From Leucoraja ocellata (lineage: Eukaryota), in contig JAWMAR010000748.1 of NCBI GenBank assembly GCA_036785375.1, forward strand, positions 62,001 through 126,000: 64,000 bases of DNA, in the 5' to 3' direction. Under the pieces are notes generated by a model. That model did not search any database, had not been told where the DNA came from, and saw nothing but the letters and a program-made list of their open reading frames with translations. This document shows positions 7,875 to 8,204 of the stretch, one piece after another; the first letter of the stretch is position 1, and each line of letters starts with the position of its first letter. Position numbers and translations under genes: made by a program.

Positions 7875-8204
7875 CCGTGAACCCGTCCATCCTAACAACG
7901 CATAAGCGTATTGGCTGAAGGGGGCAACAACCAGGTCCACTCTCACGGCCTTCCAGGCTTTGTCACCTGTCGCGACAACGGTAACCTGGTGAGAGGCTTC
8001 AGTCGCAGCAGTAAGACCACCTCCCCGAGTCTGGTTCCCAGCCAAGGGGTCGCAAAGGCTCAGCGTCTCAGCTCCCAAATTATTTACCAGCTCCTTCTCC
8101 AGTTTGAAGATAGAGAAGCATTTTTCAAAGTGATCAAAAATCTCAGGCTCCTTGCTCTTCCCTTTAGAAGTGTTGCCCATGATGTCGTTGTACAATATCA
8201 GACC
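7875..8204 (-). CDS. POLM: DNA polymerase mu, coding exon 9 (Loop1, third catalytic Asp)
   Basis: [10 protein letters not shown]...[14 protein letters not shown]...[27 protein letters not shown]; tttcAG acceptor, CGG|GTAAGT donor; 330 nt. Confidence 0.95.

What the first reader, a model, noticed from the sequence alone, without database searches (positions are those of the whole stretch)
8105..8150. Pol mu with a TdT-type specificity motif (DHFEKCF): possibly a Pol mu with stronger untemplated activity
Seen: most diagnostic segments are Pol mu-like ([14 protein letters not shown], LITHPxEGxE, VVAPxSQ, SH.LFD.EQ), but the end of Loop1 reads DHFEKCF, and the protein also has GWTGSR and FERDLRRYA. 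Established (recalled from human sequences): this motif is DHFQKCF in TdT and DAFERSF in Pol mu, and Pol mu Arg387 limits terminal transferase activity, with the TdT-like Lys substitution increasing it. Here that position is Lys, with the TdT-like His and Cys neighbours, while the second determinant is SSH (Pol mu NSH-like, not TdT DNH). Inference: this enzyme may retain an ancestral Pol mu/TdT hybrid state and contribute N-additions in an early jawed-vertebrate immune system.
Basis: partly seen in the sequence, partly recalled or inferred. Interest (0 to 1): 0.72.

Follow-up and report, generated by a model that had tools for sequence, protein, structure and literature searches.

The report
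Skate polymerase mu with TdT-like lysine
This is likely a skate's ordinary DNA-repair polymerase mu gene, but like the other sharks and rays examined it has a lysine, likely gained in their common ancestor, where the human enzyme has a 'brake' arginine, so it would be predicted to add more untemplated DNA letters.

Summary
The motif is real: DHFEKCF at 8135-8115 (-), residues 387-393 of an intact 11-exon, 529-aa gene, 99% identical to annotated skate Pol mu. The protein falls outside the TdT clade (100/100), lies beside NUDCD3 as mammalian POLM does, and keeps the Pol mu 5'-phosphate ligands (R175, H208). It lacks TdT's D473/N474 and 22-residue Loop1, and the genome has a separate TdT (DHFQKCF). 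The 'ancestral hybrid' reading mostly fails. His and Cys are old shared residues; DAFERSF is a placental form. The Lys is in 17 of 17 shark and ray POLMs, but Arg stands in chimaera, lamprey, hagfish, amphioxus and echinoderms, so the Lys is probably derived (P(Lys) at the POLM/TdT split at most 0.06), in parallel with TdT. It also appears in coelacanth and two marsupials. Human R387K raises untemplated addition up to 100-fold (second-hand), so a looser brake is plausible but untested; nothing here shows a role in N-addition. Against: fast trees join chondrichthyan POLM to TdT, and that topology is not rejected. The scan noted the same lysine before in a shark genome (e1-9526307).

The parts
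43727..43938 (-). POLM exon 1 (ATG at 43938; start of BRCT domain)
38286..38466 (-). POLM exon 2 (BRCT)
32007..32102 (-). POLM exon 3 (YACQRRTT segment; T154 and N157 are shared with TdT)
30020..30190 (-). POLM exon 4 (8-kDa domain; R181 and H214 = human R175 and H208, 5'-phosphate ligands)
28607..28678 (-). POLM exon 5
25939..26059 (-). POLM exon 6 (fingers, [17 protein letters not shown])
20926..21058 (-). POLM exon 7 (ends in GGFRR)
11151..11253 (-). POLM exon 8 (GHDVD: His329 equivalent and two catalytic Asp; LITHPDEGKE)
7875..8204 (-). POLM exon 9 (19-residue Loop1, SD1, long Loop2, RVD, GWTGSR)
8115..8135 (-). SD1 motif DHFEKCF, aa 387-393
8121..8123 (-). K391 codon (AAA), equivalent of human Pol mu R387 and mouse TdT K403
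6778..6861 (-). POLM exon 10 (FERDLRRYAK; SD2 motif SSH at 6807-6799)
2013..2099 (-). POLM exon 11 (thumb, stop TGA)

Best explanation
The gene is likely the skate orthologue of DNA polymerase mu, carrying a lysine (K391) in place of the brake arginine R387 that likely arose in the common ancestor of sharks and rays, in parallel with TdT, and that is predicted to loosen the brake on untemplated addition. Shown: intact gene, residue equivalences, place outside the TdT clade, NUDCD3 next door, a separate TdT in the genome, and the spread of Lys and Arg. Inferred from human and mouse work: the enzyme is recruited to broken ends through its BRCT domain, grips the downstream 5'-phosphate with R181/H214, and fills gaps in non-homologous end joining mostly from a template, because it lacks TdT's D473/N474 and TdT's fixed 22-residue Loop1. 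With Lys instead of Arg the primer end would slide back into the catalytic position more easily, giving more untemplated additions and more slippage than in Arg-bearing Pol mu, but not a TdT. Step odds: POLM orthology about 0.9; Lys derived about 0.85; measurable rise in untemplated activity about 0.55; real share in antigen-receptor N-addition about 0.12.
For: Identity 99.4% and 98.5% to the Leucoraja and Amblyraja proteins, 48.2% to Amblyraja TdT. Careful C20-PMSF tree of 48 rows: window in a chondrichthyan POLM clade 99/95, TdT clade 100/100 without it, chimaera (Arg) sister to elasmobranchs (Lys) 100/99. POLM monophyly is not rejected (dlnL 0.87, pAU 0.61) and is the best of 3 fixed trees with 58 rows and SD1 removed. 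NUDCD3-like exons start about 16 kb past the stop on the same strand; NUDCD3 and POLM share one block in cattle (PMC7655849) and are both at 7p13 in human (PMC6916753). Own TdT exon reads DHFQKCF on C211. Of 348 database rows, isoforms included: Lys in 130 of 130 TdT-class rows and 23 of 25 elasmobranch POLM rows (2 lack the segment); Arg in 3 of 3 chimaera rows and 180 of 190 other POLM-class rows, lamprey and Myxine among them. Amphioxus, 3 echinoderms and Trichoplax have Arg. Two-state model over 3 trees x 2 rate models: P(Lys) 0.002-0.056 at the POLM/TdT split, 0.055-0.36 at the chondrichthyan POLM ancestor, 0.996-0.998 at the elasmobranch ancestor. No sign of gene conversion at the motif: 24 of 36 nt and 5 of 12 third positions match own TdT. 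R387K raises terminal transferase up to 100-fold (cited in PMC4081086) and slippage expansions (PMC3592450); TdT D473A turns templated (PMC2724280); H208A loses end joining (PMC7508851).
Against: The fast LG tree of 103 rows joined chondrichthyan POLM to TdT at SH-aLRT 98; support fell to 81 and 69/36, but this topology was never rejected (pAU 0.33-0.67). The window keeps only 14 of 25 bony-POLM signature residues and has the TdT residue at 20 of 36 TdT-signature columns, including 6 of 11 not seen in outgroups. The immediate mammalian neighbours (AEBP1-like, POLD2-like, GCK-like) map to other contigs, C324 and C1071. For the functional step: Lys is also the residue here in template-dependent Pol beta and Pol lambda (PMC2938210); the neighbouring Glu (Q402E) much reduced mouse TdT activity (PMC2724280); the site varies among POLMs (Lys in coelacanth, two marsupials and one unnamed protein, Ser in salamanders, Thr in Xenopus), which also fits drift. 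No activity was measured.
Confidence: 0.5

Rival explanations
1. Same POLM orthologue and same derived Lys, but the change is functionally near neutral: a conservative Arg-to-Lys swap, buffered by the skate's own Loop1 and SD2, and the enzyme behaves like any Pol mu.
For: AGA/AGG to AAA/AAG needs one transition. The site also changed in coelacanth, Trichosurus, Gracilinanus, salamanders and frogs. Protostome homologues, Pol beta and Pol lambda carry Lys (PMC2938210). Glu at the preceding place lowers TdT activity (PMC2724280).
Against: Lys is fixed in 17 of 17 elasmobranch species, and Arg is kept in 180 of 190 other POLM-class rows, so the site is constrained. Single swaps at this site change activity in both human Pol mu and mouse TdT (PMC4081086, PMC2724280).
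Confidence: 0.3
2. Chondrichthyan 'POLM' is the sister of TdT, or took part of its sequence from early TdT, so the Lys was gained once with TdT and lost again in the chimaera: the first reader's Pol mu/TdT intermediate.
For: join the two groups. T154 and N157 are shared by elasmobranch POLM and TdT (T154 also by chimaera) against cyclostomes, invertebrate deuterostomes and bony POLM. Exons 3-4 lean to this topology (dlnL -3.7 and -3.2; clustering p 0.05-0.075 at three window sizes, 0.41 at a fourth, uncorrected).
Against: Support drops to 69/36 under the mixture model. Exon 9, which holds the motif, carries little signal (dlnL -1.4). Even on this tree P(Lys) at the shared node is only 0.14-0.29. 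NUDCD3 linkage matches POLM. R175/H208 are kept and D473 is absent.
Confidence: 0.14
3. The gene is a second or mislabelled TdT.
For: SD1 is identical to that of basking shark, sturgeon, bowfin and bichir TdT (DHFEKCF). The catalytic core scores equally against TdT and Pol mu structures (384 vs 382 bits; fold search does not separate them).
Against: Outside the TdT clade at 100/100. SD2 is SSH where 128 of 130 TdT-class rows have DNH. Loop1 has 19 residues against 22 in 31 of 31 TdTs. A true TdT exists elsewhere in the genome.
Confidence: 0.02

Closest known systems
Vertebrate DNA polymerase mu (POLM), X family; annotated Leucoraja erinacea XP_055518024.1 (P0412)
   Same: 11 exons, BRCT + 8-kDa + fingers/palm/thumb, HDVD/RVD/GWTGS, R175 and H208 equivalents, xSH-type SD2, basic residue at the R449 place, NUDCD3 linkage; 99.4% identical to P0412
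   Different: Lys for Arg387; Phe for Met382 just before SD1 (17 of 17 elasmobranchs); Ser for Asn457; long disordered Loop2 (aa 408-442, pLDDT under 50 in the model of P0412)
Terminal deoxynucleotidyl transferase (TdT, DNTT)
   Same: SD1 D-H-F-x-K-C-F, His before the catalytic Asp, FERDLRRYA helix, YACQRRTT segment; about 48-52% identity
   Different: No D473/N474, Loop1 19 instead of 22 residues and without the PS pair, 5'-phosphate ligands kept, different locus; the genome's own TdT is on C211/C775
Engineered human Pol mu R387K (Andrade et al. 2009, seen only as cited in PMC4081086, PMC3592450, PMC2938210)
   Same: Same substitution at the same aligned place
   Different: Natural, fixed across sharks and rays, and in another Loop1/SD2 background; activity unmeasured
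Aspergillus fumigatus PolX1 (PMC12828229)
   Same: A Pol mu-like enzyme that fills gaps and also adds untemplated nucleotides; Phe in the Loop1 wedge place, as in elasmobranch POLM; four rays even have its Phe/Leu swap
   Different: Fungal, lacks the His329 equivalent; skates have Phe/Phe at the wedge pair

Membership tests
Pol mu (POLM) | BRCT, 8-kDa and PolX catalytic domains with HDVD, RVD and GW steric gate | tested here: met
   Pfam on the 99.4% identical P0412 (BRCT just under cut-off, E 6e-4)
Pol mu (POLM) | 5'-phosphate ligands R175 and H208 | tested here: met
   R181 and H214; role from PMC7508851
Pol mu (POLM) | SD2 = NSH | tested here: inconclusive
   SSH; but SSH is in 106 and NSH in 98 of 218 POLM-class rows, so NSH is not universal
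Pol mu (POLM) | SD1 = ERS with Arg387 (definition of PMC2724280) | tested here: not met
   EKC; but that definition fits placental POLM only: most non-mammalian POLM has ERC, and all elasmobranch POLM has xKC, so I treat it as a mammalian trait, not a family criterion
Pol mu (POLM) | One clade with bony-vertebrate POLM | tested here: inconclusive
   not rejected (pAU 0.61-0.67), not supported over the alternative
Pol mu (POLM) | Conserved genomic neighbourhood (7p13 block) | tested here: met
   NUDCD3-like gene adjacent (PMC7655849, PMC6916753); one shared neighbour only, AEBP1/POLD2/GCK-like hits on other contigs
Pol mu (POLM) | Template-directed gap filling in NHEJ | not testable with these tools
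   needs the purified enzyme
TdT (DNTT) | Inside the vertebrate TdT clade | tested here: not met
   TdT clade 100/100 without it
TdT (DNTT) | SD2 = DNH | tested here: not met
   SSH; DNH in 128 of 130 TdT-class rows
TdT (DNTT) | SD1 Lys403 | tested here: met
   K391
TdT (DNTT) | 22-residue Loop1 with the PS pair | tested here: not met
   19 residues, no PS; 22 in 31 of 31 TdTs
TdT (DNTT) | Lymphoid-restricted expression and N-addition in V(D)J joints | not testable with these tools
   run metadata are coded; no tissue data

The most novel reading that the evidence does not exclude
Sharks and rays independently released the brake on polymerase mu (Arg387 to Lys, plus a Phe wedge residue), turning it into a second untemplated-addition enzyme that still bridges broken ends and adds junctional diversity to their antibody and T-cell receptor genes beside TdT.
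Probability: 0.12. Interest if true: 0.7.

Novelty: new variant of a known kind. Interest (0 to 1): 0.4.

Why it matters
R387 is described as the residue that keeps Pol mu from acting like TdT. A whole vertebrate lineage that fixed the TdT-type lysine, while its sister lineage (chimaera) kept arginine, is a natural test of that model and of how TdT arose. The comparison also corrects the picture of SD1 as a clean Pol mu/TdT marker: DHFERCF is the likely ancestral form, and the site changed several times. If the skate enzyme has strong untemplated activity it is a further natural scaffold for enzymatic DNA synthesis. The gene itself is already annotated as POLM in other skates, and the functional effect is unmeasured, which limits the score.

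Tried and rejected
1. Chance or artefact: rejected, intact spliced gene. 2. Mislabelled TdT: rejected. 3. Gene conversion of SD1 from TdT: no nucleotide signal. 4. Skate-specific change: rejected, shared by 17 of 17 elasmobranchs. 5. Real POLM duplication: judged unlikely but not excluded (see Noticed in passing); read depth could not be had from contigs. 6. The treekit AU test under the mixture model did not finish and the C20 run gave no output; all AU values are LG+F+G4 on fixed topologies. 7. Cofilin and PGAM family searches found nothing on C748; these searches score only the best candidates. 8. Neighbour search: 145 of 928 filtered ORFs (4508 before filtering) from C748:2001-296000 were scanned against Pfam, so other neighbours may be missed. 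9. Sequencing runs: no RNA holder listed on record. 10. The structure model of P0412 (pLDDT 83, Loop1 aa 378-385 under 50) and the fold search do not tell Pol mu from TdT. 11. Andrade et al. 2009 was not held. 12. Earlier findings by place and by sequence returned nothing.

Full report
OBSERVATION. DHFEKCF is encoded at 8135-8115 on the - strand, once in six frames and never in 100 base shuffles. Two database proteins mapped 11 exons between 43938 and 2013. With boundaries set by hand all 10 introns are GT-AG and the CDS gives 529 aa without a stop; the motif is aa 387-393, in exon 9. It aligns without gaps to DHFQKCF of mouse TdT and DAFERSF of human Pol mu, so K391 is the R387/K403 place. 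Splicing has outside support from relatives: a 526-aa near-identical protein comes from a 1968-nt Logan contig, and a contig of run X16 (RNA is a guess; another organism, 19 differences in 329 nt) joins exon 9 to exon 7 with 103 letters between, the length of exon 8.

WHICH GENE. The best named hits to exon 9 are skate, ray and shark Pol mu. The protein is 99.4% and 98.5% identical to Leucoraja and Amblyraja proteins and 48.2% to Amblyraja TdT. The genome holds a separate TdT: its exon reads DHFQKCF and is 97% identical to Amblyraja TdT; only two of its exons lay in the 80 kb fetched. In the careful mixture-model tree (48 rows, 499 columns) the window sits in a chondrichthyan POLM clade (99/95) and outside the TdT clade (100/100). 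The base of the vertebrate part is unresolved. A fast LG tree of 103 rows put chondrichthyan POLM next to TdT at SH-aLRT 98; the quick mixture tree gave 81 and the careful one 69/36. On fixed topologies POLM monophyly cost 0.87 lnL with 48 rows (pAU 0.61) and was best by 3.2 lnL with 58 rows, with or without the SD1 columns; the alternative was not rejected (pAU 0.33). Synteny tips the balance: exons of a CS-domain gene start about 16 kb past the stop on the same strand, best matching KIAA1068 at E 1e-17 against 2e-4 for NudC (KIAA1068 = NUDCD3 is recalled). NUDCD3 lies in one block with POLM in cattle (PMC7655849, passages) and both are at human 7p13 (PMC6916753, passages). The nearer mammalian neighbours (M14 peptidase, POLD2-like and hexokinase hits in the AEBP1-POLD2-GCK order) are on C324 and C1071, so only one neighbour is shared.

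DIAGNOSTIC RESIDUES. The protein keeps R181 and H214, the equivalents of R175 and H208 that anchor the 5'-phosphate and are needed for end joining (PMC7508851, passages); TdTs nearly always lack them. SD2 is SSH: no D473, whose loss made TdT templated (PMC2724280, passages); 128 of 130 TdT-class rows have DNH. Loop1 is 19 residues against 22 in 31 of 31 TdTs. Against a clean split: the window keeps 14 of 25 bony-POLM signature residues and matches TdT at 20 of 36 TdT-signature columns. Of those 20, 14 are residues also seen in cyclostomes or invertebrate deuterostomes (old states kept), and 6 are not, among them T154, N157 and K391; three others lie in linker or loop columns. Exons 3-4 lean towards TdT, at borderline uncorrected p (0.05-0.075 for windows of 30-80 columns, 0.41 for 20), while exon 9 does not.

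HISTORY OF THE MOTIF. His and Cys are not TdT marks: Cys is in 160 of 165 non-mammalian POLM-class rows and His in 34 of 165, with Arg in most fish and reptiles (classes set by nearest reference, isoforms counted). DHFERCF occurs in chimaera, lungfish, a caecilian, Myxine, amphioxus, Acanthaster and Diadema; DAFERSF is the placental form. Lys stands in 17 of 17 elasmobranch species (DHFEKCF in 3 skates, DHFEKCL in 4 rays, and Ala or Thr before the Lys in 10 sharks). Of 348 rows: TdT 130 of 130 Lys; elasmobranch POLM 23 of 25 (2 isoforms lack the segment); chimaera 3 of 3 Arg; other POLM class 180 Arg, 4 Lys (coelacanth, Trichosurus, Gracilinanus, one unnamed protein), 4 Ser, 2 Thr of 190. Most protostome homologues have Lys, Trichoplax Arg. 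A two-state model on 58 rows gave P(Lys) 0.002-0.056 at the POLM/TdT split, 0.055-0.36 at the chondrichthyan POLM ancestor and at least 0.996 at the elasmobranch ancestor, over three topologies and two rate models. The polarity leans on a single holocephalan species. Conversion from TdT is not indicated (24 of 36 nt, 5 of 12 third positions). So the Lys is most likely a gain on the shark-and-ray stem, in parallel with TdT.

HOW IT LIKELY WORKS. In human Pol mu R387 contacts the primer and brakes its slide back into the catalytic position; R387K raises terminal transferase up to 100-fold (PMC4081086, passages, citing Andrade 2009, which I could not read) and allows more slippage expansion (PMC3592450, passages). 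K403R in mouse TdT cripples untemplated addition (PMC2724280). By transfer, the skate enzyme would be an end-joining polymerase with a looser brake. Cautions: Lys is also the residue in template-dependent Pol beta and Pol lambda (PMC2938210, passages); Glu before it strongly reduced mouse TdT (Q402E), although 8 of 130 natural TdT rows have it; and SD2, Loop1 and the phosphate pocket all point to templated bridging. The residue before SD1, which forms the primer wedge with F405 in TdT (PMC12785651, passages; PMC12828229, section 25), is Phe in 17 of 17 elasmobranchs but also in chimaera and lungfish. No call bears on tissue expression. A role in N-addition is not needed, since a TdT is present; bamboo shark TCR-alpha joints keep a microhomology signature (PMC10322711, passages), which does not suggest extra untemplated activity there.

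NOVELTY. The gene is annotated as Pol mu in other skates, though the Amblyraja record is labelled nucleotidylexotransferase-like. Ten literature searches (most hits seen as listings only) turned up no paper on a natural Lys in shark or ray Pol mu, but the library lacks Andrade 2009 and most subscription papers (Bartl 2003, Gouge 2015 recalled; Beetz 2007 and Loc'h and Delarue 2018 seen only as reference entries), and I read no supplements, where alignments of SD1 would stand. PMC12362244, PMC3526283 and PMC8061691 were seen as passages and give background only. Interest 0.4.

Noticed in passing
G000:C748:501693-540021 (+), L006-L010: Second intact copy of the gene, 12 of 1590 nt and 7 aa different, same DHFEKCF, inside an inverted near-duplicate (75.5 kb aligned, 1.7% mismatches). 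TdT, POLD2-like, NUDCD3-like and several M14 genes are also doubled in this assembly, so an uncollapsed haplotype is likely; a true duplication is not excluded.
   Followed up: partly
window 12034-17155 (-), intron 7: DIRS-like retrotransposon: 1077-aa open frame with a reverse transcriptase domain (13513-16743), a tyrosine-recombinase frame (12548-13312) and inverted complementary repeats (12031-12109 with 12252-12330 and 17094-17169). Absent from the second copy, so probably young or polymorphic.
   Followed up: partly
L013:5865-6197, L013:500-727, L042:6798-7079 (all -): Exons of a NUDCD3-like gene directly downstream of POLM on the same strand.
   Followed up: yes
P0004, P0005, P0007, P0009 (ray POLM): Four rays have Phe before SD1 and Leu at the F389 place, the same swapped wedge pair as Aspergillus PolX1, although PMC4081086 reports loss of terminal transferase for its F389 mutants of human Pol mu, F389L among those made.
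   Followed up: no
P0522, P0083, P0031, P0045, P0047, P0087: R387 is replaced in other POLMs too: Lys in brushtail possum, Gracilinanus and coelacanth, Ser in salamanders, Thr in frogs (DGHETCY, which also loses the conserved Phe).
   Followed up: partly
window 32007-32102 and 30020-30190 (exons 3-4): This part leans towards TdT in site likelihoods, with T154 and N157 shared with TdT; a weak hint of early exchange or convergence.
   Followed up: partly
window exon 9, about 8070-7965: Long Loop2 insertion (aa 408-442), predicted disordered in the P0412 model; about 30 residues longer than in mouse TdT.
   Followed up: no
P0414 (XP_032869751.1): The Amblyraja orthologue is labelled 'DNA nucleotidylexotransferase-like' by its source although it groups with POLM.
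   Followed up: yes
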